A stretch of DNA of 64,000 nucleotides from a virus (taxonomy: Duplodnaviria; Heunggongvirae; Uroviricota; Caudoviricetes): the IMG/VR virus record IMGVR_UViG_3300031992_000025, positions 33,932 to 97,931 of that record, one strand, 5' to 3'. Both the position numbers and the translations under genes were made by a program. This document shows, in pieces, positions 2,098 to 60,429 of the stretch (the first letter of the stretch is position 1; every line of letters begins with the position of its first letter). The notes beneath the pieces are model-generated. The model searched no databases, was not told the DNA's origin, and saw only the letters and a list, made by a program, of their open reading frames with translations.

Positions 2098-2112
2098 TTG
2101 TATAATATAAAT
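2098..2112 (+). promoter_or_regulatory. extended -10 promoter TTGTATAATATAAAT
   Basis: TGn-TATAAT consensus; same 14-mer recurs >=20 times between 2 and 37 kb, often with TTTACA -35 at 17-18 nt spacing. Confidence 0.6.
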
Positions 2113-2120
2113 AGATATTA

Positions 2121-4406
2121 TTGAAAGGAAAGGTGATTATTATTCGTACCTTACTTATTTTACGCGGAGCCCCTGGATGTGGTAAGTCAACATGGGTTAA
2201 AAACAATGGTTTATCCGCCTATACTTTATGTCCAGATGATATTCGTGTTATGTGTGCTTCAAGAGAATTGAAGGCAGATGGTGCTTTTGCTATTGCAAGA
2301 AATCATGCAGTTGAACAAGAAACCTGGAAAATTATTTTAGACTTACTTGAATACAGAATGTCTCGTGGCGAATTAACAGTTTTAGATGCTACGGCTTCAA
2401 AGACAAAAGATATTAAGCAATATAAAGAATTAGCAGACCAATACAGATATAGAATGTATTGCGTTGATTTTACTGATGTTCCTTTAGAAGTTTGTAAGAA
2501 ACAAAACTTGCAACGTCCAGAAGATAAAATTGTTCCAGAACAAGGCATTGAAAATATTTATGCTCGTTTTGCAACACAACCAGTTCCAGCTGGTGTTGAA
2601 GTTATTAAGCCAGATGAATTAGATAAGATTTTAGAAAAACCAATTGATTTATCTTCTTATAGAAAAATCGTTTTTATTGGTGATATTCATGGTTGCTATG
2701 ATACTTTAATGCAATATTTCAAAGATGGCTTAGAAGATGATGTTGAATATATTTTCTTAGGTGATTATATTGACCGTGGAAACCAAAATGCTGAAGTTAT
2801 GAATTGGTTATATTCTATTAAAGATCGCCCAAATGTTTGTTTATTAGAAGGTAATCATGAAAGACACTTACAAGCTTATGGTATGGGCTATGAAGCCAAA
2901 TCCAAAGAGTTTGAAGAAAAAACAAAAGGTCAATTAATTTTAGGTGGCTTTGATGAGAAAAAAGCTAGAATTTTCTATCGAAAGCTTCGTCAAATGTCCC
3001 ATTTTACTTATAATGGTATTGAAGTTTTAGCAACTCATGGCGGTATTCCATGTATGCGTGCAAATCTTACTTATATTCCTACATGCGCTTTCATTAATGG
3101 CGTTGGTGAATATAATGACTATCAAGATGTCGCTGATACTTGGATGAAAGAAACTGCTGAAAATCAATATCAAGTTCATGGCCATCGTAATACTGCACAA
3201 GACCCAGTTCAATTAGCTGACAGAGTTTTTAACTTAGAAGGTGAAGTTGAATTTGGTGGTAAATTAAGAATTGTTGAATTAACTTCTGATACTTTTAATG
3301 GCTGGGCTTTTGGTCATCCAGAAGCTGGTTTAGTTACTGGAACAAGATGGAATGTTATTGAGTTATCTAACTGTCAACCAATTACAGAAGATTTTAATGT
3401 TGAAAAGGCTCCTGTTGAAACCGTTGAACAAGCAGTTGAATATTTAAGAAACAATCAATTTGTCAAAGAAAAGAAATTAGGTAATGGTATTTCATCTTTC
3501 AACTTTACTCGTGAAGCTTTCTATTCTGCTAACTGGACAAGACAAACAGTTTTAGCACGCGGTTTATTTATCGATACAGACAATAATAAGATTATGGCGC
3601 GTTCATATGAAAAATTCTTCCGTATCAATGAAGTTCGTGAGACTGAAATGGTTGCTTTAAAGAATAGATTGAAGTTTCCAGTCAAAGCCTATGTTAAAGA
3701 AAATGGTTTTTTAGGTATTGTCTCTTATAACTATAAGACTGATGATTTATTTGTTGCAACTAAGTCTTCTGATAAGGGTGACTGTGCAGATTATTTTAAC
3801 AAAATGCTTGAACCATATAGAGAAAAGCTATTACATCTATTAAGAGCTATTTATAACTCCGAAGATCCAGATACTTATTCATTCGTCTTTGAGTGCGTCG
3901 ACCAAGAAAACGACCCACACATCATTAAATATGATAAGAGTGATATTTATTTGTTAGATGTAGTTTACAATAGATTAGACTTTGAGACTCTTCCATATTG
4001 GAGATTGAAAGAATTAGCTGAAACTCTTGGCTGTAAAGTCAAGACAGAGGCTTATACAATCAAAGATTTTGATGAGTTCAGAGATTTAGTAAATAGAGCT
4101 GAAGATGAAGATTATAAGTATAATGGAAATTATATTGAAGGTTATGTCTTCGTTGACCAAAATGGCTTTATGACTAAATTAAAGACAGGTTATTACAATT
4201 TCTGGAAACATATGAGAAGTGTTGCTGATTCAACTTTAAGAAGTGGTTCATATAGAAGAATGGGCTCATTACTTACAGTCCAAGGTAATCAATTTGCAGC
4301 CTTCTGTAAAGAGTGTTTTAACAAAGATAGAATTAAAGAAACAAAGTCTTACCCTTACAAAACTGACATTATTTCGTTAAGAGAAAAGTTCCTATTTAAC
4401 AAATAA
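2121..4406 (+). CDS. pnkp: Pnkp-like RNA repair enzyme: polynucleotide kinase / calcineurin-type phosphatase / ATP-dependent RNA ligase fusion
   Basis: N-terminal P-loop (ILRGAPGCGKST, Walker B LTVLD). Central GDIHG / GDYIDRG / GNHE phosphatase motifs as in lambda-phosphatase and Clostridium thermocellum Pnkp. C-terminal nucleotidyltransferase-like segment with KENGFLG (KxNG lysine motif). Starts at TTG/GTG after AGGAAAG RBS. No TGA codons. Confidence 0.75.
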   Translation: MKGKVIIIRTLLILRGAPGCGKSTWVKNNGLSAYTLCPDDIRVMCASRELKADGAFAIARNHAVEQETWKIILDLLEYRMSRGELTVLDATASKTKDIKQYKELADQYRYRMYCVDFTDVPLEVCKKQNLQRPEDKIVPEQGIENIYARFATQPVPAGVEVIKPDELDKILEKPIDLSSYRKIVFIGDIHGCYDTLMQYFKDGLEDDVEYIFLGDYIDRGNQNAEVMNWLYSIKDRPNVCLLEGNHERHLQAYGMGYEAKSKEFEEKTKGQLILGGFDEKKARIFYRKLRQMSHFTYNGIEVLATHGGIPCMRANLTYIPTCAFINGVGEYNDYQDVADTWMKETAENQYQVHGHRNTAQDPVQLADRVFNLEGEVEFGGKLRIVELTSDTFNGWAFGHPEAGLVTGTRWNVIELSNCQPITEDFNVEKAPVETVEQAVEYLRNNQFVKEKKLGNGISSFNFTREAFYSANWTRQTVLARGLFIDTDNNKIMARSYEKFFRINEVRETEMVALKNRLKFPVKAYVKENGFLGIVSYNYKTDDLFVATKSSDKGDCADYFNKMLEPYREKLLHLLRAIYNSEDPDTYSFVFECVDQENDPHIIKYDKSDIYLLDVVYNRLDFETLPYWRLKELAETLGCKVKTEAYTIKDFDEFRDLVNRAEDEDYKYNGNYIEGYVFVDQNGFMTKLKTGYYNFWKHMRSVADSTLRSGSYRRMGSLLTVQGNQFAAFCKECFNKDRIKETKSYPYKTDIISLREKFLFNK

Positions 4407-4427
4407 TAAAAAAGTTTAAAAATATTT

Positions 4428-4459
4428 AAGGGCTGAGAATAAAACTTGGCCCTTTTATT
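4428..4459 (+). terminator. rho-independent terminator
   Basis: AAGGGC-TGAGAATAAAACTT-GGCCCTT-TTATT. Confidence 0.6.
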
Positions 4460-4491
4460 GTATAATATTATATATTTGGAGGTAATTTTTT

Positions 4492-4692
4492 ATGTTAGAG
4501 TTGCAAGAAATCATTAATCAGTTGGCAAAGAAAAATGAGGTCACAATTCAGGGAGGCTTATATAAAATAGCTAATGCTGTATATATTACAGATGGTGAAG
4601 TTTTAAAGACTAGACTCTTATTAAAGAGTGCTGATAGTGAAAATCAAATTGTCATCGATATTGGCATTTCTGCAAAAATTTACAAGTGCTAA
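4492..4692 (+). CDS. hypothetical protein
   Basis: RBS GGAGGTAATTTTTT-ATG after promoter TTGTATAATATTAT. Confidence 0.4.
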   Translation: MLELQEIINQLAKKNEVTIQGGLYKIANAVYITDGEVLKTRLLLKSADSENQIVIDIGISAKIYKC

Positions 4693-4720
4693 ATTAACGT
4701 AGATAGGAAAGGTTAATTTA

Positions 4721-4990: not shown

Positions 4991-5050
4991 GATTATTAAA
5001 AATATATTCGCTAAATTATATAAAGATATCGCAGGATAAAGATTTCCTGT

Positions 5051-5118
5051 AGAAACTACGCTTATTTCTTACATCCGCCGAAGCGCACGGCTAATTGCGT
5101 TGCCATTCTATTTAGAGC
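5051..5118 (+). repeat. bipartite bulged-helix motif copy 11 (divergent)
   Basis: AGAAACTACGCTTATTTCT ... GAGCTAGTTCAGAT (AACTA-C-GC pairs GC-TAGTT). Confidence 0.5.
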
Positions 5119-5236
5119 TAGTTCAGATATTGCAGCAAACAGACTATAGATAATATTTAGCCAGAGCGGTACGACTTGTGGTCAAATCCCAGGAGGAGAA
5201 CAAGGAGACTGGGTGTCTGATGACTAGCTACGAGCA

Positions 5237-5385: not shown

Positions 5386-5397
5386 TTGTATAATAAT
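5386..5397 (+). promoter_or_regulatory. extended -10 promoter TTGTATAATAAT
   Basis: TGn-TATAAT; motif copy 1 starts at +1. Confidence 0.55.
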
Positions 5398-5399: not shown

Positions 5400-5462
5400 A
5401 GAGCTTGTGCTTATTTCTAAATTACGAATCTTGAAAATCCGCGACATTAGCCAAGCCAAAAT
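5400..5462 (+). repeat. bipartite bulged-helix motif copy 1
   Basis: AGAGCTTGTGCTTATTTCT ... TAGCCAAGCCAAAA (GCTTG/CAAGC double covariation); begins at promoter +1. Confidence 0.65.
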
Positions 5463-5482
5463 AAAAAAATTTATAAAACTAT

Positions 5483-5515
5483 TTACAAAAATAAAAAAAT
5501 AGTTGTATAATATAT
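5483..5515 (+). promoter_or_regulatory. sigma70-type promoter TTTACA-N18-TTGTATAATATAT
   Basis: -35 TTTACA plus extended -10. Confidence 0.6.
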
Positions 5516-5546: not shown

Positions 5547-5600
5547 GAGCCTATACTTATTTCTTTAGAAAATATGGTATTCAAGTTAGTTAGGCCAAAT
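5547..5600 (+). repeat. bipartite bulged-helix motif copy 2
   Basis: AGAGCCTATACTTATTTCT ... AGTTAGGCCAAAT. Confidence 0.7.
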
Positions 5601-7740: not shown

Positions 7741-7775
7741 AAAAGCCTACTTTTTGTAGGCTTTTCTTTTTTATA
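7741..7775 (+). terminator. rho-independent terminator
   Basis: AAAAGCCTAC-TTTTT-GTAGGCTTTTCTTTTTT. Confidence 0.7.
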
Positions 7776-7885
7776 TTGTATAATAAATATATGATTATAA
7801 GCTAAATTAAAATGATAACTTCGGTTGTTATTTAGGGTACGATGTACTAATCTAGCTAACTAAGTTAATCAGTTTAGGAGTTACT

Positions 7886-9493: not shown

Positions 9494-9527
9494 GCATCCT
9501 GAGCATATGTACTCAGGATTTTTTATT
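9494..9527 (+). terminator. rho-independent terminator
   Basis: ATCCTGAG-CATATGTA-CTCAGGAT-TTTTTATT. Confidence 0.7.
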
Positions 9528-9538
9528 GTATAATATAT
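9526..9538 (+). promoter_or_regulatory. extended -10 promoter TTGTATAATATAT
   Basis: immediately after terminator, 14 nt before ATG of 9552 gene. Confidence 0.55.
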
Positions 9539-10106: not shown

Positions 10107-10157
10107 AAACTATTTACAATTACGGATATTTATAGTATAATATATAAGTATCTTAAT

Positions 10158-10234: not shown

Positions 10235-10351
10235 AAATTAAAAAAAATATTTACAAATTAGAAAAAAAGTTGTATAATATTTATGAGCGTTGAAAAAAGA
10301 TACGCTAAATTAATATGTCAGCAGTGAGCTGGCAAGAAAGACGGAGAAAGT

Positions 10352-11314: not shown

Positions 11315-11349
11315 AAATTATATTTACAATTAGAAATGGTTGTAGTATA

Positions 11350-11580
11350 ATATAAATGTTGAATATGATAGCTGAAAAGACCATCACTCAGTAAGCTTGA
11401 ATAGAGTAGGTATGACGACTCCTGACACCGCTTAGTCGTCACGTCTATGGGCAAAATCTCATAGCAGCAGGCTAATGCTGTAAAACTTAGTCTAGGGTAC
11501 AGCTAATACGAACGTGGTAAAGGCCGAGGCCGAAGAAGGGCATAACAGGAGCGGACACCCTCTAAAGAGTGGGGCCACCA
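11350..11580 (+). ncRNA. candidate structured ncRNA ending in GGGGCCACCA
   Basis: ORF-free about 230 nt between promoter TTGTAGTATAATATAAAT and tRNA-Ile; internal hairpin TGACGACT..AGTCGTCA. Confidence 0.3.
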
Positions 11581-11917: not shown

Positions 11918-11982
11918 AGAGCCTATACTTATTTCTGTCTAGAGACAATTGCCTGCAACGCGATCATTATAGTTAGGCCAAT
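11918..11982 (+). repeat. bipartite bulged-helix motif copy 3 (AGAGCCTATACTTATTTCT ... AGTTAGGCCAA)
   Basis: GCCTA-T-AC pairs GT-TAGGC; 34-nt insert; immediately after tRNA-Gln CCA. Confidence 0.7.
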
Positions 11983-12246: not shown

Positions 12247-12291
12247 TAAAAACTGTTTACAACTCAGTATAAATGTTGTATAATATAAAAT

Positions 12292-12847: not shown

Positions 12848-12931
12848 AGAGCCTATACTTATTTCTTAATGGTTTTTGAAGGTTCGATTCCTTCATTACC
12901 CGCTTTGGGTGATGATATTAGTTAGGCCAAA
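12848..12931 (+). repeat. bipartite bulged-helix motif copy 4 enclosing a permuted tRNA minihelix
   Basis: AGAGCCTATACTTATTTCT + T-arm GAAGG-TTCGATT-CCTTC + acceptor 3' ATTACCC-G + CTTT + complementary 5' strand GGGTGAT + AGTTAGGCCAA. Confidence 0.65.
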
Positions 12932-13239: not shown

Positions 13240-13253
13240 TTGTATAATATAAT
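13240..13253 (+). promoter_or_regulatory. extended -10 promoter TTGTATAATATAAT
   Basis: drives ncRNA candidate plus tRNA-Met cluster. Confidence 0.55.
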
Positions 13254-14285: not shown

Positions 14286-14363
14286 AGAGCTTATACTTAT
14301 TTCTTGAATGCTGTGGTTCGAATCCACCTTGCCTGTGGGGAGCGGAAAGTAGTTAAGCCAAAT
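14286..14363 (+). repeat. bipartite bulged-helix motif copy 6 enclosing tRNA 3'-fragment
   Basis: AGAGCTTATACTTATTTCT ... AGTTAAGCCAAAT (GCTTA/TAAGC covariation); insert has T-arm GTGG-TTCGAAT-CCAC. Confidence 0.65.
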
Positions 14364-15060: not shown

Positions 15061-15095
15061 AAATCTAGCTTTTTATGTTGTATAATATAATAGTT

Positions 15096-16485: not shown

Positions 16486-16528
16486 TATTTATTTAAATTA
16501 AATTGTATAATATATAGAGGATTATTAT

Positions 16529-17574: not shown

Positions 17575-17724
17575 GAGAGAATTATGTTAGCTATTGAACT
17601 ATTTGCAATATATGGAATTGGATTAGGAATTTTAAACCTACTTACTCTTGGATTAATACTATTCCATAAAATTAAAAAAGATTAATATTAGCATATAATT
17701 ATTTGCTAAATTAAAATGAGTTTT

Positions 17725-18450: not shown

Positions 18451-18463
18451 TTAGGAGATTAAT

Positions 18464-20327: not shown

Positions 20328-20477
20328 TCGTATAATATAATGTAACTGCCACACATTGCCGCCGTGGTCGGAAAAGAGAATTGATCATCTCTAAGTACTG
20401 GATAAGGGCGGGTCTAGCCAAACGGTGCACAAAATTCTGGAAATACAAAAGGCGATCCATAAAGCAACAGTTACAAT

Positions 20478-20503: not shown

Positions 20504-20534
20504 AATTGTATAATATAAATGAGGTTTATTTTAT

Positions 20535-21105: not shown

Positions 21106-21179
21106 AAATTTTTAAAATTTCTCAAAAAATATTCGCTAAAATAATACACAGCAAAAAAATTAAAAATTTGCTGTATAAT

Positions 21180-24188: not shown

Positions 24189-24209
24189 TTTATTGTATAA
24201 TATTATAAT

Positions 24210-24708: not shown

Positions 24709-24822
24709 TTAAAAAAATATTTACAAAAAATAAAAAATATCGTATAATATTAATGTGAATGAAAAAACATTCGCTAAATTAAATAAGTGAATTGCAAACT
24801 AATATATAACAAAGCAATTCAC

Positions 24823-25150: not shown

Positions 25151-25203
25151 ATATGTAATAATATTTGCAGCGCAAGTTGTGTCCCAAATATTTGCTAAAT
25201 TAA

Positions 25204-27252: not shown

Positions 27253-27310
27253 ATAAAATATTTTGCATTTGACTTAAAATTATTTGCTAAATTAATTGAG
27301 GTTCAAAATT

Positions 27311-28123: not shown

Positions 28124-28205
28124 ATTATTGTATAATATATTGTGGTTGAGATATGAGTTTTGGTAGTTTTGTGCCACGCATGCGGAAATAAAAACTACTA
28201 TATAT

Positions 28206-28400: not shown

Positions 28401-28461
28401 TATTTTTTTGCTAAATTATTATGAATATTATAAAATAATTTACTATAAAGGAGAGTAGTTT

Positions 28462-29042: not shown

Positions 29043-29852
29043 TTGCTAAATTATATGATTATGAAGAATTTAGTTAAAACTGATTTTGATAAGACATATG
29101 ATGAATTAAGCAACTTATCTTTTATTATAAATGAAAAAGAAGATAGCTCAATAGACATTTTAGATGATATTACCTTAGAACAGTTTGGTCAGCCATATGA
29201 AAAATCAAGTATTCAATCCCTTAAAATAAAAAATACTTGTGGAATTTATTTAATTTTTAGAAAAGCAGAAGATGGTAGACTTCATAAATATATTGGGCAA
29301 GCAACTTCTCTACGTGACCGTTTATTGAAGCATCTTTCTAGGGCTGCATATATTATGGAGCATCCTAAGACAGATGAAAACAAAAATTTAGGCATTTATA
29401 AAGATTCGCCAGCTTTACATAGTGCTTTAATTAGACACAATTTTAAGGGGTTTTTCTTTGTTATATTAAAAATTTGTAAGCAAGAACAACTAAATGCATT
29501 AGAACAATTTGCTATTGCACAGTATGGCACTTTTGAAAATAAGTGAGATTATAATTTAACCCCTGGTGGCCAAGAAGGTGTAATTACTCATACAACTGCT
29601 GTTGAGCAATGAATTATAGAATATAAAAAAAGCACCAAAGGGCATGCTGCAGAAGTTAGATGAATTAATTGTAAAAATGTTTATCCAAGTGAAGCTGCTG
29701 CTTCTATTGCTGTTTGTGGTGAAAATAAGCATCAGCAAATAGCAAATGCATTAGCAACACCTGATGGTGAATTTTGACAAAATAAATCTGGTAAGAATAA
29801 ACAATGAGCTGGCTATGGTTGGAGACTACTAGACGAAGTTGCTAGCGAGTAG
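29043..29852 (+). CDS. GIY-YIG homing endonuclease (TGA-recoded C-terminal half)
   Basis: CGIYLIF...KYIGQATSLRDR (GIY-YIG), catalytic E in ALEQFAIAQYG; frame continues through about 6 TGA to TAG at 29850. Confidence 0.7.
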
Positions 29853-30325: not shown

Positions 30326-30362
30326 TGCTTTTTTAAATGTATAATATAATAAGAGGTTTATT

Positions 30363-32850: not shown

Positions 32851-32864
32851 TTGTATAATATAAT
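32851..32864 (+). promoter_or_regulatory. extended -10 promoter TTGTATAATATAAT
   Basis: after terminator, upstream of Thg1-like gene. Confidence 0.55.
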
Positions 32865-34425: not shown

Positions 34426-34504
34426 GTTGTATAATATATAAAAATAACATTCAAAAGTCCCAAAAGGACGATTTGTAGCTTAAAAGGCGAAGGAGAATTA
34501 GAAA

Positions 34505-36753: not shown

Positions 36754-36782
36754 AAAAAGGGGTTTACAAAACCTCTTTTTTG
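36754..36782 (+). terminator. rho-independent terminator
   Basis: AAAAAGGGGTTTACAAAACCTCTTTTTTG. Confidence 0.55.
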
Positions 36783-36810
36783 TTGTATAATATATGTAGG
36801 AGAAAGAAAA

Positions 36811-37536: not shown

Positions 37537-37622
37537 TTGGTTAGCTTTTTTAATAAGCTAAATTATTATATATGATACTTAATAAATTTAAAGACTGATA
37601 TATTAGGCATTGTGAGCTTATT

Positions 37623-37784: not shown

Positions 37785-37867
37785 GTTATAAATTTTTTTA
37801 ACCAATTTTTTCGCTAAATTAATGTGAGATTGATAGAAATCTTACCAAAAGTAAGGAGGAAGCCTCT

Positions 37868-38860: not shown

Positions 38861-38875
38861 TCTGCTAAATTATTT
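38861..38875 (+). promoter_or_regulatory. TCTGCTAAATTATTT motif upstream of first structural-module gene
   Basis: as above. Confidence 0.4.
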
Positions 38876-44692: not shown

Positions 44693-44707
44693 ATTGCTAA
44701 ATTATAT
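44693..44707 (+). promoter_or_regulatory. ATTGCTAAATTATAT motif
   Basis: follows terminator, 27 nt before ATG 44734. Confidence 0.4.
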
Positions 44708-45110: not shown

Positions 45111-48100
45111 ATGGTTGGTAAAATAAATAAAAATTCAACATCTATTAGTGGCTCAATAAATGCTCCAACTCCTAGTACTGGCACTGTTTCAAGGCTTGGT
45201 GGCGGAACTGCAGACCATACAAAGTTATTAAATAGAAATGCTCCAAATCAGCATAATATTGCTGCAATTACTGGTTTACAAGATCTATTAGACAGTAAAC
45301 TTGATTCTGAAACTGCTTTACCTTTAATTGAGGATGCTACTAATAATAAAGCACGTGGCTTATTTTATGACATACACTGTGAAATTGCTGAAAAACCATA
45401 CTGATATTTAACCTCTGAAATTGATGAGGAAACTGGACAAGGGACTCTTGATTCAATTATTTCTGGACCATATGACCTCGGCCAAGGCGGAGGCGGTGGC
45501 GGAGGCGGTGGTGGTGTCACTGACGTCACGCTTAATATCGCAATTGATCCAGAGACTGGTGAACGTATGTGGCCAACATACGTAGCTATTGGTAGCGCAT
45601 GTACTATTGGTGTTACTTGGTCATCTACAAGAGATGGCGAGTCTACTGGCCGTGGCACATTATATGTATATGTTAATGATAAATTAGTTGAAACAAAAGC
45701 AACTCAACAAGGTATTGTTACATTTGAAATTGGTGATTACTTAACTTCAGGTGAAAATAAGATTGAAATTAGAGCAATAGATGCTTATTCTACAAGTAAG
45801 AATTTTATTAGCTCTATTTCAGGTATTACATTAAAGTTACAGTCTAACTTTGAAGATGATATCAGTTATACTGGTGATGTTACTTTCACATATATCCCAA
45901 CAGGTAATATTAGAAAACTTGTATATTTTATTGTTGACGGCGTTCAATTTGGTGCTCCTGAAGTTGTTACTACTTCTGGTGAACAATGAACAAAAATTAT
46001 TCCACAGTCACTTTTAACTCATGGTTCACATACATTAGAAGTTTACTTTACTTGCGAACTAGATGGTGAAACAGTTAGATCTAATGAATTATACTATGAT
46101 TTAATTTGTTATGAACCTGGAAACACTACCCCAATTATTGCTTCTACCTTTAAAGATAGTGCCCCGCAAGAGCAATATGTTTCATTTACAGTTAGATACA
46201 GAGTTTTTACTCCAAATAAAAATGACTCAATTGTTTATTTAATTTCAGACGGAACTTCTTCAAGCCCATTAACTATTGACCAAAGATATCATTTGTGGGA
46301 ATGCCGCTTTGATATTCCAGGTAACCATACTTTAATTATTAGAACTGGTCGTGTTTCTAAGATTTTTAATGTTAAAGTTGTCGAGAGCACCGTTCATGTT
46401 GAACCAGTTACACAATCATTAGCACTTGAATTAAGTTCATATGGCCGCTCAAATTCAGTTCCATTAGAAGAGCGTTCCCAATGGAATTATAATGATATTA
46501 CAAGTACTTTAACTGGCTTTAACTGAGTTTCAAATGGTTGGGTACTTGATGATGATGGTAATACTGCTTTACGTCTTTCTGGTGATGCTCGTGTTACTAT
46601 TAACTATAAGCCATTTGAGACTGACTTTACTTCAACAGGTAAAACTTTTGAATTTGAAATTGCTACATCAGATGTTAAAGATTATGAAACTAAAATCTTT
46701 GAATGTCTTGATGGTGCTGATACAATTACTTATTCAACAAGATATGCTGGTGAAGATACTCGTACTAAAAAGTTTGCAGTTGAGTCTATTGACTTAGAGA
46801 TGTTTACTACTAAGGTTTTAGGCTCTAAAGGAACATATGTCTTTATTTATGATGGGCATAACTGAGATTTAGACGGACTTTTAGTTACACAAGAAGCTCT
46901 TAGAGATGAATATGGTATTACATTAGAAGAAGTTGATTTAGACCCAACAGTAATTGAACCAAGCCATTATGTGATTGAAGATAAAATTACTGTTTATTAT
47001 ACCGTTGCTGGTCACGGCTTCTATATTACTCCTCAATTAGCAAAACTTCAGTCTAATCAATCGTCACTTTCAACACAATATAAAGAAGGTGAAAAAGTTA
47101 GACTTGCTTTCGTTGTTGAAAATCGTAATGATGGCTCAGAAACATTTAAGACAAGATTACTTTATATGTATATTAATGGTATTTTGTCAGGTGTTTCTAG
47201 ATATCCAGAAGGCGATAGTTTCCAACAAACTCCAGCAAGTAAAGTTGCTAATATTACAATTGGTAGTAATGATGCTACTGTTGATGTTTATACAATTCGT
47301 ATTTATAATAGTAATTTAACAAGAAAGCAAATTGTTCAAAACTGAATTGCTGATACTAGAAACCCAGTATTAAAAGCACAAAGATATAAACATAATGATA
47401 ATTACAACGATGAAAATAAAATTTCATTAGATAAAGTTAAACTTCTTGGTAATCTTCCATATATGATTTTACGTGGAGAAAAATTACCAGCATATAAAAA
47501 AGATAGAAAATATATTGAAGTTGAGTATAGAAATCCATCTGATCCAGATAGAGACTTTACTGCTACACAAGCAAGAGCTGACGTTCAAGGTACTTCTTCT
47601 CAATACTACTATAGAAAGAATTTTAAAATTAAGTTTGAAGGTGGTTTTGAAGATAATAATGGAAACTGGACAGAGCATTATAAAATGCGTGGCGATGATT
47701 CAAAGAAAGAAAAAACTTATACATTCAAAGCTGACGTTGCTTCTTCAGAAGGTGCAAATAACGTTGAATTAGTAAGATATTTTGAAGACACCAAAAACTG
47801 GTACTCACCAGCTGAGCAGGAACCAGATACTGACTTAAACACTGCTGATAGTAAATTACGTATTCGTGTTGGTATTGATGGTTTCCCAATTGTTATGTTC
47901 CATGATGCTGGAGATAATAAGCCAGTTTTCTATGGTAAAATGAACTTTAACAATGATAAAGGAAATGAAAGAACTTTTGGTTTTAAAGAAGGCGACGAAT
48001 GTTGGGAATTTGTTAACAACTCATCTCCACTTGTCTTATTTAAAACTGATGATTTAACTGATTGGCAAAGTTCTTGGGAGTCTAGATATCCAGAAGAATA

Positions 48101-51100
48101 TGGCGATGATGCACATGCTTATGGAACAGGACCGGGAGAATTAACTAAATTACAACAAGTTGTATCCTGGATTGTCTCTACTAGACGTGATACTGCAACT
48201 GGAAACCCATTACCAACTCGTAAATCATTTGATGGCGGTGTAACATATTATACTCATGATACTGAAGAATATCGTTTAGCTAAGTTTAAAGGTGAATTAT
48301 CTCAATACTTTGATAAAACATCATCATTATTCTATTACTTATACACAGAGTTATTCTTAATGGTTGACTCTCGTGCAAAAAACGCAATGCTTGCTTACTT
48401 AAAGAGCAGACAACCTGGTGATGGTGGTAATAAATGATTCTGAATGCCATACGATATGGACACTGCGTTAGGTATTAACAACGAAGGTCTATTAGTTTTC
48501 AGCTACGATAAAGAAGATACAGATTTACAAGAAGGCGCTAATATTTATAATGGACAAGCATCTATTTTCTGGAACAATCTAAGAGATGCATTTGGTCCAG
48601 AATTAAAACAAATGTATGCTGACCTTCGTACTGATAAGGGACAAGGTAAACCTTATTGGAGCTACGATAATATTGAAAAATACTTTGAAGACCATCAAGC
48701 TGTTTGGTCTGAAGCAATTTTTAATGAAGATGCTTATACAAAATATTTAGAGCCTTATATAAATGATAAAGATGCTACTTACTTAGGTATGGCACAAGGT
48801 TCAAAAGAGCAACAAAGAAAATGGTGAATGTATAATAGATTTAAATATCTAGATTCTAAATATCTAACTGGTGATGCATTAAAAGATACTATTATGTTCC
48901 GTGCATATGTTCCAGTAGGCCCAAAACCAAATATTACTGTTACTCCATACCAAAATATGTATGCTGCAGCACTATTTAGAAATGGTGATACTGTTACGCC
49001 AGTCAGAGCTTCAAAAGGCACACCAGTTACATTAGTAAATACAGTTGAATATGAAGCAACAGAAACAGACCAAGAAACAATTATTTATTCTGCTTCTCAA
49101 TTAAAAGATATTGGTGATCTTTCCGTATTTAAGCCAGGATATGCAGACTTTTCAAAAGCAACTAAACTACAAAGATTACAAATTGGTAGTTCAAATCCTT
49201 CATATGAAAATCCAAACCTTAAAGGAATTAACGTTGGTGCTAACCACTTATTAACTTACTTAGATGCTAGACACTGTAAAAACTTAGGTGTTGGTGAGGG
49301 TGCTGATGTTACCCCAACCATTGACTTATCTCAATGTTATAGTATTGAAGAAGCTTATTTTGATGATACTCAAATTAAAGCAGTCAGCTTCCCTGTTGGT
49401 GGAAACTTAAAGAGAGTTCACTTACCAGAAACAATTACAAGCTTAACAATTAGAAACCATCCTAACTTAGAAGAGCTTGTTTTAGGCGGTACAGCTAATC
49501 TTTCATCTATTTGGTTAGAAGATATCCCATCAACAACAATTAATGCTGTTGATATTATTTCACAAATGCCTGATGGCTCAACTGTTAGATTAATGAATAT
49601 TAATAATACAATTAATACTGTTGGTGAAGTTGAAGCTTTCTATGCAAAGCTTGCTAGAATGCAAGGTAGAGATGGTAAAGGCGACCCAACTCCAAAAGCA
49701 CAAATTACTGGTGTTATTCATGTTCCTCAAACAGTTAACTTCCCATATGCTATTTGGAAACGCTTATCTGAACAATTTGATGAAGTTACAATTGATGCAA
49801 AGGTTGTTTGTACAGTTAACTTCTGGAATGAGGGTGTTTTACATGAATCAAAACTCGCTGTTTTAGGTGGTCCTGCACAAACTCCATCAATTCCAGTAAA
49901 AGCATCTACACAACAATACTATTATACATTTGCAGCATGGGATCAAGCATATGACGAAGTATTTGAAGATTTAGATATTAATGCTACTTTTGACCCACAT
50001 ATTCAACATTATACAATTAAATTTAGAACCGGTTCAAATCTTATTCATGCTATTCCTGCTGAAGTCGATTTAGAGTATGGTGCATTAATTCCAGAGCCAA
50101 CACTTGATTATGGAACTGTTGACGAGACCACTATTAGATTCTTAGGTTGGTATACAGCGAATAATGACCAAGTAGACTTCACTACAAAAACTGTTTCAGG
50201 AAATATTATTAGGTTCCCAGAAACAATGGAAATTGTTATTTCTGCAAGATGGCAAGATATGAATGCACCATTAGTAGAAAGAATAACAGTACTTGCTTAT
50301 AATAAATTTAGATTCGAACTATCAGATAACTTAGGTGTTACAGGATATGCTATTACTAACTCTGCAGAAGCTCCAGCTTTTGAGGACTCTGCTTGGGTTA
50401 ATTTGCCTGAACCACTTACCTACTACTCAAACGAATATACTGTTCGTCATGCTGGTGAATACTATGTCCATGTTAAAGATGACACAAGCAGTTCATTTGA
50501 AAAAGTTACTGCTTATGCAATTTCATTAACACAAAATATTAATAATGAGGAATATGACACCTCAGAAAATATTGTTCAATTAGCTCTTACTGAAAATGAT
50601 GAGCCGGTTAATGCTAGCTTTGCTTTACAGACTACTACATTAGTAGTTGCTACAGATTTAGATGAACACTATGAGTCATTATCATTATATTGTAATGATG
50701 TATTTGTTGATACTGGTACATCACTTTATGTAGCAGAAGACCTCAACTTTGTAGCAACATGCTATCCAAAACATTATATGGTAACATTTGATGTTGGAGA
50801 CCATGGTTCAAATGTAGATAGCCAAGAAATTATATATAAGCATTTTGCAATTGAGCCTACCCCACAAGTTGATGGTAGTATGATTCTTGATAACTGGTCT
50901 TATGAAGATAATATTTGGGTCTTTAATTCATATGCTGTTTTAGGCGATATGGAATTAGTTGCTAACTGGGTTAACTATACAGGTTCAACTGATATTCAAC
51001 TAGACTTACCAGTAGGAAATTTATTCCCATCAGAAGGCATTGAAGTGTCTATTCATATTTATCAGTCAGTTGGTAGAGCTGTTCAGATTCGTTGAGAGGG

Positions 51101-52484
51101 TGATAGTACTGACCCGAGCAATATAAGCAGACTTAATGTTGAAGGTGATACTACATTTACTCATAGATATATGACTGGTGGCGGCCACGCAGTTAAGATT
51201 TCAAGATTAGCTGGTGATTTTATTCTTGGAAAGAGCTATGACTATCCTTTAGTTGAACCAATTGAGTATGTTTCTGATATTACTTTTGGTTATGATATTG
51301 CTGCAACTAAAGAAGGACTTTTAAGAGGTGCTATAAATTTATATGATATTAAATTAAATAGATTTATGGTAACATTGGCCTCTAGTATGTTTGAGGGCTG
51401 CACTAATATTAGACATGTTATTATTGCAGGTGAAAATAGCTTAGGTGAGTTAGACCTTTCTCAAACAGACATGATACCAGAATCAGTTAGATTTATTGGC
51501 GATAATGTATTTAAAGGTTGTACTGCACTTGTGAATATTAGAATGCCTGAAAGATTAGCCTCTTTGGGTACTAACGTATTTGCTGATTGTACTGGTCTTC
51601 AAACAGTTACTTTCTCAGATAATTCTACTCTTAGTACATTACCTAATAATACATTCTCTGGTTGCTCAGATTTAATTAGTGTTCATATTCCAAATAGTAT
51701 TACTACAGTTGGTGAATATGCTTTTAATGGTTGTTCGTCATTAGCTAATATTGTCCTTGGTCCAAATGTTGTAAGAATTGGTGCTTCTGCATTTGCTGAT
51801 TGTACAATATTAAATGACGTAGCAATAAGAGCAACATCAATGGAATCAATGGGCTTAAATATTTTCTACAACTGTCCAAATCTTCAAGATGCTGGACCAA
51901 TTGGTGGTGATTATGATATTAAATTTGGTTGACAAACAGCTATCCCAGCAAATGCATTTGGTGTATCATATACTGGTGCTTCTGCATTATTAGCAATTGA
52001 CCTACCAAATACTATTACTTCAATCGGAGACAGAGCTTTCTACAGATGTACTAGATTACAGGCAGTTAATTCAAATAATATCTTACCAAGAAGTTTAATA
52101 TATATTGGTGATGAAAGTTTTAGATATTGTTTTGAACTATTAGGTATTGATATTCCAGCTTCAACAACTTATATCGGTGCAAGTGCATTTGACTCTTGCC
52201 GTGGTTTAAGGACTATTTATATTAGATGTCCAAATAGTACATATAAAGTTACAGCAACTACTGGAGCATGGTTTGCTCAAGTAAGTTTAAGTATATTTGA
52301 TCCATCAGCTGAAGAATGAGGTGGAGAATTAATTCACATTCCATCAGCTCTCTCTGATACTGACCCAGAAAAACAGACACCAAGTGAAGCTTATGGTGAA
52401 TTCTGGAATTGGCACAGCCAAGAAATAGACTCAGAAACTGGAACAATTACAACATATACACTTGGCTATGAATGTAATCTTTAA
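45111..52484 (+). CDS. giant ORF (2458 aa if all about 10 TGA are sense): tail fibre/adhesin-like with poly-Gly linker, BspA-type leucine-rich repeats and Flg_new-like repeats
   Basis: single frame free of TAA/TAG for 7.37 kb in an AT-rich genome; RBS AGGAGGAGACTGATTA-ATG; GGGGGGGGGG at about 45480; LRR_5-like repeats 51.3-52.3 kb; HYMVTFDVGDHGS...LVANW repeat. Confidence 0.5.
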
Positions 52485-54612: not shown

Positions 54613-54627
54613 TTTGCTAAATTAATT
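54613..54627 (+). promoter_or_regulatory. TTTGCTAAATTAATT motif
   Basis: 48 nt before ATG 54675. Confidence 0.4.
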
Positions 54628-57600: not shown

Positions 57601-57848
57601 ATGGTTCAGGAGCTAACATTTCAAGCTCATCTGGATATCATCAAACAGGCACAAGTGTTACTGAGTGGTGAGTTGAAGTTGATGGCAAAGACTATCGACA
57701 AGCAATTCGTGCAGCCAAGAATTTAACAGGTAATATCGATTCTGACTCACCTGAAGTTGATGGTGTGTACTACATTGTTGTATTTGGTAAGAACTTAGCT
57801 GGTGCTTGGTCAATGGCCGGCACTGCAGCTGAAGTTCCATCTGCCTAA
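54675..57848 (+). CDS. large structural protein (1057 aa), Thr/Ser/Gly-rich, Ig-like repeats (TGA-recoded near C-terminus)
   Basis: RBS AAAGGAGATAATAT-ATG after TTTGCTAAATTAATT motif; continues through TGA at 57669. Confidence 0.5.
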
Positions 57849-57873
57849 TACTAGTTATTAAAAATTAATATAT

Positions 57874-57908
57874 AGCCGGGGCAGATATATAAAAATCCCC
57901 GGCTATTT
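57874..57908 (+). terminator. rho-independent terminator
   Basis: AGCCGGGGCAGATATATAAAAATCCCCGGCTATTT. Confidence 0.7.
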
Positions 57909-57959
57909 AATTAAAATATATAGAAATTGTAAACAAAAATAAAGGAAAGGGTGTAATAA

Positions 57960-60359
57960 ATGGCAAGTTATCCATTAGTAACATATACAAACTTAAAGCA
58001 TAAAGTTATTACTGGGCTAAGTAATGGTAGTCTTGTTATTGGTGATGAAAGTATTACACCTGTTTTTTCTAAAACAACAGAAAATATTTTACCTTTCAAA
58101 GTTTCATTTGTTAGCCCATATAATCAAATAACTGGAACATTTACTGCAAACAGAGCTTTAAATGCTTTTGAGGTTAGAATTTCTCCAGCTGAAGAAACAA
58201 GTTACGGTCCTGGTGAAGGTATCTGTGCTTTTTCAATAGTTGGTATAGCTGGAAATACTTCAAATAATTTTATTATTCCTATTAATTCGGCCACTTGTTT
58301 ATGTAGCCCATCAAATACTTATAGAATTTGTTTATTAGCTCAAAGTGAATTAGACTATTCTTGGGACTGCACTCAATTATATATGGTAATTGATACAAAT
58401 ACTTCATTTACTAATACTTATACTGAGGTGGAATTTCTTAAGTCTACTGGCACACAATATATAGATACAGGTCTTGGTGTTTCATCCTCTATTAAAGTAG
58501 AAATTACTTTATTACCAACAGTTCAAGGAGTTGATGAGCGCTTTTTTGGTGCTTATGATAATGGTATTTTCTTAGGTCAATTGGCTAGCAAATGGCGTTA
58601 TGGTAGCACTTGTGAAAAAAATGACATTGCAATTGATTATGCAACTAAAACTACTGTAACAGCGAATGGCGCAGCTTGAACATTTAATGGAGTAGAAAAA
58701 ACTGCTAGTACTATTGGAAATCGTGGTAATAGAATGCTTATTTTTGGAGCATCTTATAGAAGTGATGCTCTGTATGGAGCGGGTCGTTGTCAAATTTATA
58801 CTTGCAAGATTTGGGATGGGGCTAATTTAGTTAGAAATTTTGTTCCTTGTATTAGAAATTCTGATAATAAACCAGGAATGTATGATAGAGTAAATAATGT
58901 ATTTTACACAAATCAAGGTTCGGGTGAATTTTTATATGGCCCATTAAAGTCAGTCCCACAAAAATATCAACAAGTAAACTATATTGAGTCTAGTGGTAAA
59001 CAATATATTGATACTAATTTTGTGCCATTAATTTCTAATACTTGAAAAATTGAAGCTGATGTATCATTTCATACTTCTGATGTAAGGCAAGCAATTTTTG
59101 GAAGCTATGGCAGAAATAATTCAACTAATAATTATCTATGCTGTGAAATAACTGCAGGAAATAAATTTAGATTAGTTAGCTATAATGAAGATAGAAATTC
59201 ATCGGCTACTATGGCAGTAAATAAACTATATAAATTAATAGTATATAATGATGCCAATAAAGCATATTTGAGAATTATGGGTGAAAATACTGATGAAACA
59301 ACTGATTATGTCACATTAATAGATAATAATAACTCAGAGCTACTATTTAAAGATTATAGAGATAATATTTTTACGCTTGAATCAATTAGGCTTTATTCAT
59401 TTAAAATAAGTAATAATACCGGTCCAGTGCGTCACTTAGTTCCATGTTATAGAAAAGCCGATAATATAGCTGGAATGTTTGATTTAGTAGGTAATCAATT
59501 TTATCGTGACCCAGAATCAACAATTAACTTAGGTGATATTTCGGCTACTTATACAAACTTTAATTATAATACAAGTTATAATTTAGATAGCTGGGGCGGA
59601 AATGTTGGCACTGCTAAATTTTTTGGTTCAGGTGGGTATGAGAATGCTCCATATTATGCTTATTATAAAACGACTAATGGCACTTCTGGTGGTTCGTATA
59701 AAGATACGGCAGATAATATGACTATTGAAGCTGGTAAGAAATATACAATGTCAATTTATGTAAAAGCAAGTAGAGAAGTAGCCAGTAATAGTGAGTATCT
59801 TTTTACATTAAATAGACACAGTGATAATTATTACATTACATATAATTCTCAGGTTAACCTTACAACAGATTGACAAAGACTTACTAAAACATTTACTGCT
59901 TCTGCTGCCCAAGCTGGTAATTATTGTGTGAGAAATATTATTTATACAACTGTACCAGCCGATACAACAGTTTATTTTTCAGGATTTCAATTAGAGCTAA
60001 ATGATCATGCTACCCCATTTGCTTTAGGAACAAGAGATTTTAGTAAAGGTAGTAACGAAAATAATTGCAACTATCTAAAATATACTCCAACTGATTATGA
60101 TAGTTATGAAGTTCATTGTGGCGGGTCAGCACAATTTAGTGAATTGTGATTAATTAGTTGCCCGAGTAGTGCTAGAATACAGACAATAAAATTAATAAGG
60201 AGTATGACAGGCTTAGCCTTAAAAGAGGCCAAAGATTTAGTAGAAATTTGTCCATGTTGTATATATGATTCTACAAATAATCAAGAGTTCTTATTAGATA
60301 AATATGATGAATATGCAAGTCAATTTGAAGCTTGCGGAGCAGCTATTGAGCTAAGATAA
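57960..60359 (+). CDS. structural protein (799 aa, TGA-recoded) with C-terminal ribosomal protein bL12 (L7/L12) C-terminal-domain-like module
   Basis: frame continuous through 4 TGA; last 60 aa [60 protein letters not shown] aligns with bL12 CTD [23 protein letters not shown]...LEEAGAEVE. Confidence 0.5.
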
Positions 60360-60376
60360 TATATAAGAATTAATAT

Positions 60377-60411
60377 GAAAGTTCTGATAATTAAAGTCAG
60401 AACTTTTATTT
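60377..60411 (+). terminator. rho-independent terminator
   Basis: GAAAGTTCTGATAATTAAAGTCAGAACTTTTATTT. Confidence 0.65.
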
Positions 60412-60414
60412 ATA

Positions 60415-60429
60415 TTTGCTAAATTATAT
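60415..60429 (+). promoter_or_regulatory. TTTGCTAAATTATAT motif
   Basis: follows terminator, 28 nt before ATG 60457. Confidence 0.4.

What the first reader, a model, noticed from the sequence alone, without database searches (positions are those of the whole stretch)
2098..60429. Two promoter vocabularies: TTTACA-N17-TGTATAATATAAT confined to 0-37 kb versus TTGCTAAATTATAT found genome-wide including late genes
The extended -10 14-mer occurs at least 20 times up to 36.8 kb and never in the structural module. The TTGCTAAATTATAT motif occurs at least 15 times, sometimes overlapping the first class (25194-25217).

It precedes late genes at 38861, 44693, 54613 and 60415, each just after a terminator and 25-50 nt before a start codon. 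This suggests a phage-specific sigma factor/RNAP or activator site for middle and late transcription.
Basis: seen in the sequence. Interest (0 to 1): 0.5.

Follow-up and report, generated by a model that had tools for sequence, protein, structure and literature searches.

The report
Two promoter classes in recoded phage
This stretch of an uncultured large phage carries two sharply different promoter-like sequences: a standard bacterial type in front of early genes and tRNAs, and a phage-family-specific one (GCTAAATTA) in front of every late operon. The second type also marks exactly the genes that read the stop codon TGA as an amino acid.

Summary
Class 1 (NGTATAAT, mostly TGTATAATAT) has 24 intergenic + strand sites between 2099 and 36791 and none in the late module. 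Only 8 of them carry a TTTACA -35. The rest have no -35 and abut terminator T-runs.

Class 2 is best defined by the invariant 9-mer GCTAAATTA (context aaaattATTTGCTAAATTAwwtRr). It occurs 17 times on the + strand and never on the - strand, against about 1.2 expected, and never inside a gene.

TTGCTA is not a -35, because nothing is conserved 17 bp downstream. The element is -10-like and stands alone.

The 9-mer is kept in relatives at 41-88% protein identity (51 + / 2 - in 291 kb), including orthologous junctions where the surrounding DNA no longer aligns.

New here: late genes read TGA as sense. One example is a 2457-aa ORF with 11 in-frame TGAs. In the window, genes behind class 1 alone have 0 TGA in 4874 codons, and genes behind class 2 have 54 in 10931.

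Most likely class 2 is the middle/late promoter read by a phage-directed specificity factor. No sigma or RNA polymerase gene was found in the sequence available, and no transcription start site (TSS) data exist.

The parts
2078..2106 (+). class 1 promoter, TTTACG-N17-TATAAT, before the Pnkp/RNA-ligase gene 2121-4406
4459..4466 (+). class 1 (TGTATAAT), no -35, abuts terminator 4428-4454; ATG at 4492
5387..5394 (+). class 1, no -35; before the Y-RNA-like element 5401-5459
5482..5511 (+). class 1 with TTTACA at 18 bp; before the Y-RNA-like element 5547-5598 and the 677-aa gene
7777..7784 (+). class 1 after terminator 7741-7765; tandem with class 2 at 7801; before phoH
9527..9534 (+). class 1 after terminator 9496-9519; ATG 17 nt downstream
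10113..10141 (+). class 1, TTTACA-N17-TATAAT, before tRNA-Glu 10158
10250..10278 (+). class 1, TTTACA-N17-TATAAT; tandem with class 2 at 10304; before a tRNA cluster
11323..11351 (+). class 1, TTTACA-N17-TATAAT, before a non-coding stretch and tRNA-Ile 11586
12256..12284 (+). class 1, TTTACA-N17-TATAAT, before tRNA-Glu 12292
13241..13248 (+). class 1 (exact 13-mer), before non-coding 13.25-13.54 kb and tRNA-Met
15079..15086 (+). class 1 (exact 13-mer), before tRNA-Ile 15096
16504..16511 (+). class 1, ATG 17 nt downstream (16529)
20329..20336 (+). class 1 variant CGTATAAT
20507..20514 (+). class 1 after terminator 20478-20501; ATG at 20535
21172..21179 (+). class 1 at the head of the 3.1-kb ORF-free stretch
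24194..24201 (+). class 1 after terminator 24157-24180
24720..24748 (+). class 1, TTTACA-N17-(CG)TATAAT; tandem with class 2 at 24773
28129..28136 (+). class 1 before tRNA-Thr 28206
30338..30345 (+). class 1 (exact 13-mer), ATG 17 nt downstream (methyltransferase)
32852..32859 (+). class 1 (exact 13-mer) after terminator 32823-32848; Thg1-like gene
34428..34435 (+). class 1 before the 290-aa gene 34505
36763..36791 (+). last class 1 site; its TTTACA lies inside terminator 36754-36780
1416..1424 (+). class 2 core GCTAAATTA, 33 nt before ATG 1458
4688..4696 (+). class 2 core overlapping the end of ORF 4492-4692; conserved in L137 at 9477
5010..5018 (+). class 2 core before the Y-RNA-like element 5052-5126
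7801..7809 (+). class 2 core before phoH (3 TGA); same junction in L001-L003
10304..10312 (+). class 2 core, 25 nt after the class 1 8-mer at 10271-10278; the same tandem cassette occurs in L140 at 19063/19095
17705..17713 (+). class 2 core before genes 17836-20327
24773..24781 (+). class 2 core, tandem after class 1 at 24741
25194..25202 (+). class 2 core, 2 nt upstream of class 1 at 25205
27286..27294 (+). class 2 core before the DUF559 endonuclease gene (7 TGA)
28410..28418 (+). class 2 core after a Y-RNA-like stem and T-run; conserved in L135 at 241
29045..29053 (+). class 2 core 1-7 nt before the ATG of a gene with GIY...YIG endonuclease motifs seen by eye in the translation (5 TGA); mRNA possibly leaderless
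37557..37565 (+). class 2 core, first site of the late region, after a terminator
37813..37821 (+). class 2 core before 37868-38404 (2 TGA); footprint conserved in L137 at 20218
38864..38872 (+). class 2 core after terminator 38815-38844; heads operon 38913-44606; footprint in L137 at 21287
44696..44704 (+). class 2 core after terminator 44645-44674; heads the operon with the 2457-aa ORF
54616..54624 (+). class 2 core before 54675-57848; the ortholog in L086 has the motif 44 nt upstream
60418..60426 (+). class 2 core after hairpin 60380-60404; the ortholog in L086 has the motif 40 nt upstream
45111..52484 (+). 2457-aa late ORF with 11 in-frame TGA (context: recoded late genes)

Best explanation
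The window is part of a large (about 190-240 kb) uncultured phage, with all genes on one strand. Its host probably uses Shine-Dalgarno sites and sigma-70-type promoters, which suggests Firmicutes.

Class 1 (TGTATAATAT, with or without TTTACA at 17 bp) is a near-consensus host sigma-A promoter. It drives early protein genes, tRNA clusters and small RNAs.

Class 2 (aaaattATTT-GCTAAATTA-wwtRr) is a second kind of promoter. It is a single AT-rich element in the -10 region with no -35 partner. Transcription would start about 5-8 nt after the 9-mer.

Class 2 is most likely read after the early phase by host core polymerase carrying a phage-encoded sigma-like specificity factor, as in the T4 gp55 and SPO1 gp33/34 paradigms. 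Less likely, it is read by a phage-encoded polymerase. It heads every late (structural and lysis) operon, several homing-endonuclease genes, and some early-region units that also have a class 1 promoter (tandem cassettes).

In this window the class 2 gene set coincides with the genes that contain in-frame TGA. Late transcription and the TGA-to-sense code switch therefore gate the same genes.

Shown: the motifs, their placement, their conservation and the TGA association.
For: 1. Specificity. GCTAAATTA occurs 17 times on + and 0 on - in the window. Expectation is 1.2. None is inside a gene although 78% of the window is coding. One-mismatch variants are at background, 33 on + and 28 on -.

2. 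Anatomy. The only conservation is from about -10 to +5 around the 9-mer. Nothing is conserved 17 bp downstream, so it is not a -35, and nothing is conserved further upstream.

3. Placement. It occupies the same slot as class 1, namely terminator, then motif, then 16-50 nt, then SD-ATG. Of the late intergenic gaps over 50 nt, all carry it except 57849-57959 and 62312-62525. No class 1 site exists there.

4. Family conservation. In 291 kb of relatives there are 51 copies on + and 2 on -, across GC contents of 29-40% and 41-88% protein identity. It is retained at orthologous junctions. In L137 only TAAATCTGCTAAATTATTTGAT and GCTAAATTAATGTGAGATT survive while the flanks diverge and the terminator stem shows compensatory changes. 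It lies 40-44 nt before the orthologs of 54675 and 60457 in L086, which share 41-44% identity. It travels with the 120-aa gene to a different genome position.

5. Independence of the two classes. The order is swapped at the same junction: class 1 then class 2 in the window, class 2 then class 1 in L002. A conserved tandem cassette also exists.

6. Link with recoding. Genes behind class 1 alone have 0 TGA in 4874 codons. Genes behind class 2, or behind both, have 54 in 10931. Fisher p = 4.7e-9.

7. Geometry. The ATG of the GIY-YIG gene lies 1-7 nt after the motif in the window and 5 nt after it in L140, which implies a start site just downstream, as for a -10 element.
Against: There are no transcription start data.

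No sigma, RNA polymerase or activator gene was found in any of these:
- the window (Pfam and PHROGs);
- 150 non-window ORF clusters of relatives, where only the top 25 of 88 Pfam families were visible;
- the gene tables of L137 and L140;
- a phmmer search with T4 gp55 and gp45.

The 9-mer can be read as a legitimate extended -10 for host sigma-A. It has TG, one base, then TAAATT, which keeps T-12, A-11 and T-7. A host-only reading is therefore possible.

Class 1 is just as invariant as class 2, so invariance alone does not point to a special reader.

The TGA association is not absolute in a close relative. In L137, phoH (3 TGA) and two small genes lie behind class 1 only, and the nrdD/nrdG genes behind class 2 have no TGA.

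Class 2 also precedes TGA-free genes in the early half (1458, 17836-20327, 28462).
Confidence: 0.6

Rival explanations
1. Class 2 is also a host sigma-A promoter. It would be an extended -10 (TG-n-TAAATT) of lower intrinsic strength whose use is delayed or boosted by a phage activator, by DNA replication or topology, or simply by competition. No new sigma or polymerase would be involved.
For: The motif keeps the three bases most important for sigma-70-type -10 recognition (T-12, A-11, T-7) and has TG at the canonical -15/-14 spacing (read directly). The upstream region is A/T-rich like an UP element. No phage sigma or RNAP was found. Class 2 also occurs before non-late genes.
Against: A merely weaker sigma-A promoter could be built in many ways. 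Instead, nine positions are identical in 68 distinct sites across phages of 29-40% GC, including the GC that sigma-A does not specify, with no enrichment of one-mismatch variants. The same genomes use perfect TATAAT elsewhere, and the two sequence types partition the genes.
Confidence: 0.2
2. Class 2 is the promoter of a phage-encoded RNA polymerase, either single-subunit T7/N4-like or a split multisubunit enzyme of the phiKZ/AR9 type, encoded outside the window.
For: The genomes of the family are jumbo-sized, with contigs of 194-290 kb, and such phages often carry their own polymerases (general knowledge). The conserved block in close relatives reaches about 20 nt and extends past the presumed start site. 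The strict invariance resembles phage-polymerase promoters.
Against: No polymerase gene was seen in the sequence inspected. The one DFDGD-bearing ORF found (L125) lies on an unrelated contig where the motif is inside the gene. The information is concentrated in a 9-mer at the -10 position with an AT-rich melting character, more like sigma-type elements. Early genes clearly use host-type promoters.
Confidence: 0.15
3. The 9-mer acts at the RNA level (a processing, antitermination or translation signal), or in DNA replication or packaging, rather than as a promoter.
For: In three tandem cassettes it would lie at about +17 to +26 of class 1 transcripts. Strand specificity would also fit an RNA signal.
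Against: In the late region it follows strong intrinsic terminators with no other promoter available. Its distance to the start codon varies from 1 to over 100 nt, so it is not tied to ribosome binding. It has no conserved pairing partner. Seventeen dispersed copies at operon heads do not fit a replication or packaging site.
Confidence: 0.05

Closest known systems
Phage T4 late promoters (TATAAATA, read by gp55 with gp33 and the gp45 clamp)
   Same: A single, nearly invariant 8-9-bp AT-rich element at the -10 position with no -35. It heads late structural operons. Early genes use host sigma-70 promoters. One locus that shares the motif context (L097) encodes a T4-type portal and a prohead protease.
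   Different: The sequence is different (GCTAAATTA). No gp55, gp33 or gp45 homolog was found in the sequence held. Class 2 also precedes non-late genes. It is not shown that L097 belongs to the same family.
Bacillus phage SPO1 sigma cascade (gp28 middle, gp33/34 late)
   Same: A large Firmicutes-type phage with host-sigma early promoters and phage-sigma-specific later classes. The window's Pnkp/ligase has its best matches in SPbeta-like, Alicyclobacillus and staphylococcal Twort-like phages.
   Different: SPO1 middle and late promoters are bipartite (-35 and -10). Class 2 has no upstream partner.
-35-less TG-TATAAT promoters of T5 late genes and Thermus phage P23-45 middle/late genes (from memory, not checked here)
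   Same: Sixteen class 1 sites are -35-less, with TG next to TATAAT.
   Different: Here this type is confined to the early half, and TG is directly adjacent to the hexamer rather than one base away.
Late promoters of phiKZ/AR9 non-virion RNA polymerases
   Same: Jumbo phages with short AT-rich late motifs close to the start site.
   Different: No split beta/beta' genes were seen, and the early genes here clearly use host-type promoters.
Stop-codon-recoded gut phages (Borges et al., bioRxiv 10.1101/2021.08.26.457843), especially the TGA-recoded, roughly 200-kb 'Jade' clade, whose figure legend refers to infected Firmicutes cells
   Same: In-frame TGA is concentrated in structural and lysis genes, early genes are in the standard code, TGA is avoided as a stop, and GC is low.
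   Different: That paper contains no promoter analysis ('promoter' occurs 0 times). Membership of this window in a named clade was not tested. No TGA suppressor tRNA lies in the window.

Membership tests
sigma-70/sigma-A promoter (class 1) | -10 hexamer TATAAT | tested here: met
   24 intergenic sites with NGTATAAT
sigma-70/sigma-A promoter (class 1) | -35 hexamer TTGACA-like at 17 +/- 1 bp | tested here: inconclusive
   Present (TTTACA) at 8 of 24 sites and absent at 16
sigma-70/sigma-A promoter (class 1) | mapped start site 6-8 nt after the hexamer | not testable with these tools
   No RNA data. The ATG lies 14-25 nt after the motif at 10 sites, so leaders would be about 10 nt long
canonical extended -10 (TGnTATAAT) | TG separated from the hexamer by one base | tested here: not met
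   In class 1, TG abuts TATAAT. The 17-bp spacing to TTTACA fixes the hexamer. Class 2 has the canonical spacing, TG-C-TAAATT
T4-type late promoter system | single -10-region element with no -35 requirement | tested here: met
   No information outside about -10 to +5 of the 9-mer
T4-type late promoter system | consensus TATAAATA | tested here: not met
   The consensus here is GCTAAATTA
T4-type late promoter system | gp55-like sigma, gp33 and a clamp encoded by the phage | tested here: inconclusive
   phmmer with T4 gp55 and gp45 gave no hit in the window or any of the 135 loci held at that point, which included unrelated motif-scan hits. Most of each genome could not be fetched
T4 middle promoter (MotA box TTTGCTTTA at -30 plus -10) | -10 element 11-13 bp downstream of the box | tested here: not met
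   No conserved TAnnnT downstream
sigma-54 promoter | GG 10 bp upstream of the GC of TTGC | tested here: not met
   Upstream positions are A/T with no conserved G
   Positions +21 to +26 are unconserved
phage single-subunit RNAP promoter (T7-like) | 17-23-bp conserved block across the start site, plus an RNAP gene | tested here: inconclusive
   The conserved block is 19-22 nt in a close relative but only about 15 nt family-wide. No RNAP gene was found
stop-codon-recoded phage (TGA to sense) | long ORFs restored by reading TGA; TGA not needed as a stop | tested here: met
   ORF 45111-52484 is 2457 aa with 11 TGA, and its pieces match one 2494-position PHROG profile. TGA positions are conserved in relatives, and one aligns to TGG
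stop-codon-recoded phage (TGA to sense) | phage suppressor tRNA (anticodon UCA) | tested here: not met
   None among the 38 tRNAs nor in a permissive ARAGORN run. It may lie outside the window

The most novel reading that the evidence does not exclude
GCTAAATTA defines the regulon of a previously undescribed phage transcription-specificity factor. No recognisable sigma or RNAP was detected so far. The factor would be shared by a whole family of uncultured 190-290-kb gut/rumen phages. This regulon would also be the set of genes that can only be translated after the phage switches the cell to TGA = Trp. Late expression would then be double-locked, at transcription and at decoding.
Probability: 0.3. 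Interest if true: 0.65.

Novelty: new member of a known kind. Interest (0 to 1): 0.45.

Why it matters
Temporal promoter classes are textbook phage biology, so the principle is not new.

What is new is a precise and easily searchable late/middle promoter for a widespread family of uncultured large phages that read TGA as an amino acid. With it, operon structure and expression class can be predicted from sequence alone.

It also yields a testable link between promoter class and in-frame TGA use. The hypothesis that recoding times late gene expression currently rests on gene function alone. Promoter class offers an independent, sequence-based marker of 'late'.

Finally, it provides a bait: any protein that makes host polymerase initiate at GCTAAATTA is the missing regulator.

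Tried and rejected
1. TTGCTA as a -35: rejected, because no -10 lies at 16-18 bp.
2. MotA-box-like and sigma-54-like readings: rejected for the same reason.
3. The 2457-aa giant protein as a virion RNA polymerase: rejected. Its sequence looks like a tail or adhesin protein, with repeat and leucine-rich segments seen by eye, and PHROG 14959 has no known function.
4. Close cultured relatives in INPHARED: none for the DNA, the 998-aa protein or the 677-aa protein.
5. Exact-protein look-up of the source contig: not on record.
A few family loci were recovered (L026, L071, L075, L086) along with others with family-like context whose family membership is unproven (L057, L084, L097, L115).
7. Relatives of two late proteins by peptide-pattern scan: none.
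8. Search for a sigma or RNAP gene, all negative or capped:
   - Pfam and PHROGs on about 50 window proteins.
   - Pfam on 150 ORF clusters from relatives, where only 25 of 88 matched families were displayed.
   - Gene tables of two long contigs.
   - phmmer with T4 gp55/gp45.
   - A DFDGD regex, whose single hit (L125) is an unrelated contig.

9. Literature string searches for the motif: nothing relevant.
10. The 677-aa conserved protein next to the Y-RNA-like elements as a Ro60/TROVE protein: no Pfam or PDB sequence hit, and the AlphaFold model (pLDDT 74.6) has no significant PDB fold match.
11. 'Circularly permuted tRNA genes' at 26249-26370 and 28285-28398: re-interpreted as YrlA-type Y RNAs after sub-threshold Rfam hits and comparison with the published architecture.

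Full report
WHAT THE WINDOW IS

The DNA is 32% G+C and positively GC-skewed throughout, and essentially every gene lies on the + strand. It carries 38 tRNA genes in two blocks, at 10.1-16.5 kb and 25-28.3 kb.

It also encodes an RNA-repair and tRNA toolkit:
- a kinase-phosphatase-RNA ligase fusion at 2121-4406;
- a Thg1-like enzyme at 32878-33789;
- several metallophosphoesterases;
- PhoH.

From about 37.5 kb onward there is a late module with very large proteins.

No cultured phage is close. Relatives are metagenomic contigs of 194-290 kb. The window therefore comes from a family of uncultured large phages. Strong Shine-Dalgarno sites and sigma-70-type promoters point to a Firmicutes-like host. 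This is an inference: one DUF5662 homolog is annotated in a Blautia genome.

CHECKING THE OBSERVATION

Both motifs are real and far above chance, but each needs re-definition.

Class 1:
- The core TGTATAATA occurs 22 times on + and once on -, against about 1.3 expected.
- With C or A at the first base there are 24 intergenic sites, all between 2099 and 36791.
- The three hits beyond 37 kb are inside genes and at chance level.
- The exact 13-mer occurs only 5 times.
- Only 8 sites have TTTACA at 17-18 bp. These mostly precede tRNA or small-RNA clusters.
- The other 16 have no -35 and usually abut the T-run of a terminator.
- At 10 sites the ATG is only 14-25 nt after the motif, so the Shine-Dalgarno sequence would sit at the very 5' end of the mRNA.
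- The 17-bp spacing to TTTACA fixes TATAAT as the hexamer. The TG is therefore directly adjacent, not at the canonical one-base distance.

Class 2:
- The exact 14-mer occurs four times.
- The real unit is GCTAAATTA: 17 on +, 0 on -, about 1.2 expected, and none inside a gene.
- One-mismatch variants show no strand excess (33 against 28), so the 9-mer is effectively invariant.
- The context over 68 distinct sites is aaaattATTT-GCTAAATTA-wwtRr.

WHAT CLASS 2 IS NOT

If TTGCTA were a -35, a -10 should appear 16-18 bp downstream. Those positions carry no information. For the same reason it is not a MotA-box-type element. There is no GG ten bases upstream, as a sigma-54 site would need.

It has no pairing partner, and its distance to the start codon ranges from 1 to over 100 nt. 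This argues against a ribosome-linked or structured RNA signal.

WHAT CLASS 2 LOOKS LIKE

It is a stand-alone element in the -10 region, and it occupies the same slot as class 1: terminator, motif, short leader, SD-ATG.

In the late region, of the intergenic gaps over 50 nt, all carry it except 57849-57959 and 62312-62525. The sites are 37557, 37813, 38864, 44696, 54616 and 60418. No class 1 site exists there.

A gene with GIY...YIG endonuclease motifs (seen by eye in the translation) starts 1-7 nt after the motif in the window, and its homolog starts 5 nt after it in L140. This places the start of transcription a few bases downstream of the 9-mer, as for a -10 element.

The motif can be read as TG-C-TAAATT, an extended -10 with T-12, A-11 and T-7 intact. 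This is why a host sigma-A reading cannot be dismissed.

COMPARATIVE EVIDENCE

Fourteen IMG/VR loci were found through the 677-aa protein (48-57% identity, GC 29-40%). They hold 41 copies on the gene strand and 1 on the other, in the same context and 15-60 nt before SD-ATG. Adding closer relatives (L135, L137, L140) and L086 gives 51 against 2 in 291 kb.

At orthologous junctions the motif persists where the rest has diverged:
- In L137 only TAAATCTGCTAAATTATTTGAT and GCTAAATTAATGTGAGATT are retained upstream of the orthologs of 38913 and 37868. The preceding terminator keeps its stem through compensatory changes.
- In L086 the orthologs of 54675 and 60457 (41-44% identity) have the motif 44 and 40 nt upstream.
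- The 120-aa gene at 44734 has homologs at a different genome position in L002-L012. In L008/L012 the motif sits directly upstream (9137 before 9187).

The two classes behave as independent modules:
- After the 677-aa gene the window has class 1 then class 2, whereas L002 has class 2 then class 1.
- A tandem cassette (class 1, 24-25 nt between the class 1 8-mer and the 9-mer, class 2) recurs before tRNA or small-RNA clusters in the window (10271/10304, 24741/24773) and in L140 (19063/19095).

LINK WITH THE GENETIC CODE

Reading TGA as sense restores long ORFs:
- 45111-52484: 2457 aa, 11 TGA;
- 40092-43811: 1239 aa;
- 57960-60359: 799 aa;
- 61181-62311: 376 aa.

Under the standard code the giant ORF falls into pieces that match successive parts of one 2494-position PHROG profile. 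Under the TGA-sense reading every gene ends in TAA or TAG. The only two standard-code ORFs that end in TGA, 62526-62909 and 62910-63434, are in-frame pieces of one longer read-through ORF. TGA positions are conserved in relatives, and one aligns with TGG, which fits TGA = Trp.

Within the window, genes whose nearest upstream promoter is class 1 alone contain 0 TGA in 4874 codons. Genes behind class 2, or behind both, contain 54 in 10931. Fisher p = 4.7e-9. This includes four TGA-bearing genes embedded in the 'early' half, each with class 2 upstream: phoH, a DUF559 endonuclease, the gene with GIY...YIG motifs and a 139-aa gene.

The rule is softer in L137. There phoH (3 TGA) and two small genes lie behind class 1 only, and nrdD/nrdG behind class 2 have no TGA.

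The published survey of recoded phages proposes that recoding times late expression, but it contains no promoter analysis.

No sigma, RNA polymerase or activator was found in any of these:
- the window;
- two annotated neighbourhoods of long contigs;
- a phmmer search with T4 gp55/gp45;
- a catalytic-motif regex, whose single hit lies on an unrelated contig.

Most of each roughly 200-kb genome could not be reached with the tools, so this is absence of evidence only.

One locus that shares the motif context (L097) encodes a T4-type portal, a prohead protease and, in L057, a tail sheath. These are compatible with, but no proof of, a T4-like late system.

VERDICT

The two vocabularies exist.
- Class 1 is an ordinary, near-consensus host-type promoter set, one third with a -35.
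- Class 2 is a family-specific, -10-like, stand-alone promoter element for middle and late units.
- I put 0.6 on a phage-directed specificity factor on host core polymerase, 0.2 on host sigma-A with or without an activator, 0.15 on a phage polymerase, and 0.05 on a non-promoter role.

The kind of system is well known. The motif, its family-wide conservation and its coincidence with TGA-containing genes are new details.

Noticed in passing
window 37868-64000, plus 7886-8797, 27311-28123, 29055-30295: TGA is read as a sense codon, probably Trp. Examples are the 2457-aa ORF 45111-52484 with 11 in-frame TGA and the 1239-aa, 799-aa and 376-aa ORFs. Under this reading every gene ends in TAA or TAG, and early genes contain no TGA. 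No tRNA with anticodon UCA lies in the window.
   Followed up: yes
window 5052-5126, 5401-5459, 5547-5598, 11919-11981, 12849-12930, 14096-14202, 14287-14361, 24825-24885, 26249-26370, 26942-27008, 28285-28398: Eleven small elements share a closing stem, G-A-GCCTA-T-RCT-TATTTCT ... AGY-TAGGC-C-AA, with clear covariation (GCCTA/TAGGC, GCTTG/CAAGC, ACCTG/CAGGT, GCCCA/TGGGC, GCCAA/TTGGC). Two of them (26249-26370, 28285-28398) contain V, T, acceptor and D arms in the order typical of YrlA Y RNAs, and they give sub-threshold Rfam RF02553 hits (38 and 33.5 bits; gathering score 69). An array of this size looks unusual. No TROVE/Ro60 gene was recognised.
   Followed up: partly
window 14114-14187: A tRNA-like gene with a 6-nt anticodon loop (5 nt in the L135 homolog) sits inside one of the Y-RNA-like stems. 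The segment 14122-14176 is 91% identical to DNA of the Prevotella Lak megaphages.
   Followed up: partly
window 5692-7725: A 677-aa protein is conserved throughout the family (524 homologs found, none with a Pfam domain) and lies directly downstream of two Y-RNA-like elements. The AlphaFold model (pLDDT 74.6: a helical N-terminal half and a beta-sandwich C-terminal half) has no significant PDB match. It is not demonstrably Ro60-like.
   Followed up: partly
window 21106-24209: A 3.1-kb stretch at about 40% GC has no long ORF in any frame and no tRNA or Rfam match. A class 1 promoter sits at its head (21172) and a terminator at its end (24157-24180). It has several GNRA-type hairpins (GCCGAAAGGC and similar), a folding z-score of only -1.5 for its first 900 nt, and no homolog in the loci held. 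It is possibly a large structured RNA or a group of introns.
   Followed up: partly
window 25230-25835, 27311-28123, 29055-29852: Three homing-endonuclease-type genes lie inside the second tRNA block: an HNH-like motif and GIY...YIG motifs (both seen by eye in the translations) and DUF559 (Pfam hit). The latter two (DUF559 and GIY...YIG) are TGA-rich and sit behind class 2. The gene with GIY...YIG motifs would be leaderless or nearly so.
   Followed up: partly
window 17051-17342: Permissive ARAGORN calls a tRNA-Val (CAC) with a 215-nt insertion in the anticodon loop. The region is 92% identical in relative L137 and lies in an 800-nt ORF-free gap.
   Followed up: no
window 62312-62525: A GC-rich 214-nt intergenic stretch in the late region (ccgcggataccggtgg...ggggcaggggtac) has no promoter motif and no Rfam match. 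It may be a structured RNA.
   Followed up: no
window 2121-4406, 32878-33789, 35826-37536; L010 2846-4210; L140 1-1246: A dense RNA-repair and tRNA-maturation toolkit: a Pnkp-like kinase/phosphatase fused to a T4 Rnl1-type ligase, a Thg1-like 3'-5' polymerase and metallophosphoesterases. Relatives also encode a CCA-adding enzyme. All of this sits next to 38 tRNAs and the Y-RNA-like array.
   Followed up: no
window 31229-32800: A 523-aa SPFH/flotillin-like protein is encoded among the early genes and is 97.5% identical in L135.
   Followed up: no
window 57849-57959: This is one of two late intergenic gaps over 50 nt that lack class 2 (the other is 62312-62525). It contains a hairpin (agccggggcagatatataaaaatccccggct), so gene 57960-60359 may depend on read-through or on an unrecognised signal.
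   Followed up: no
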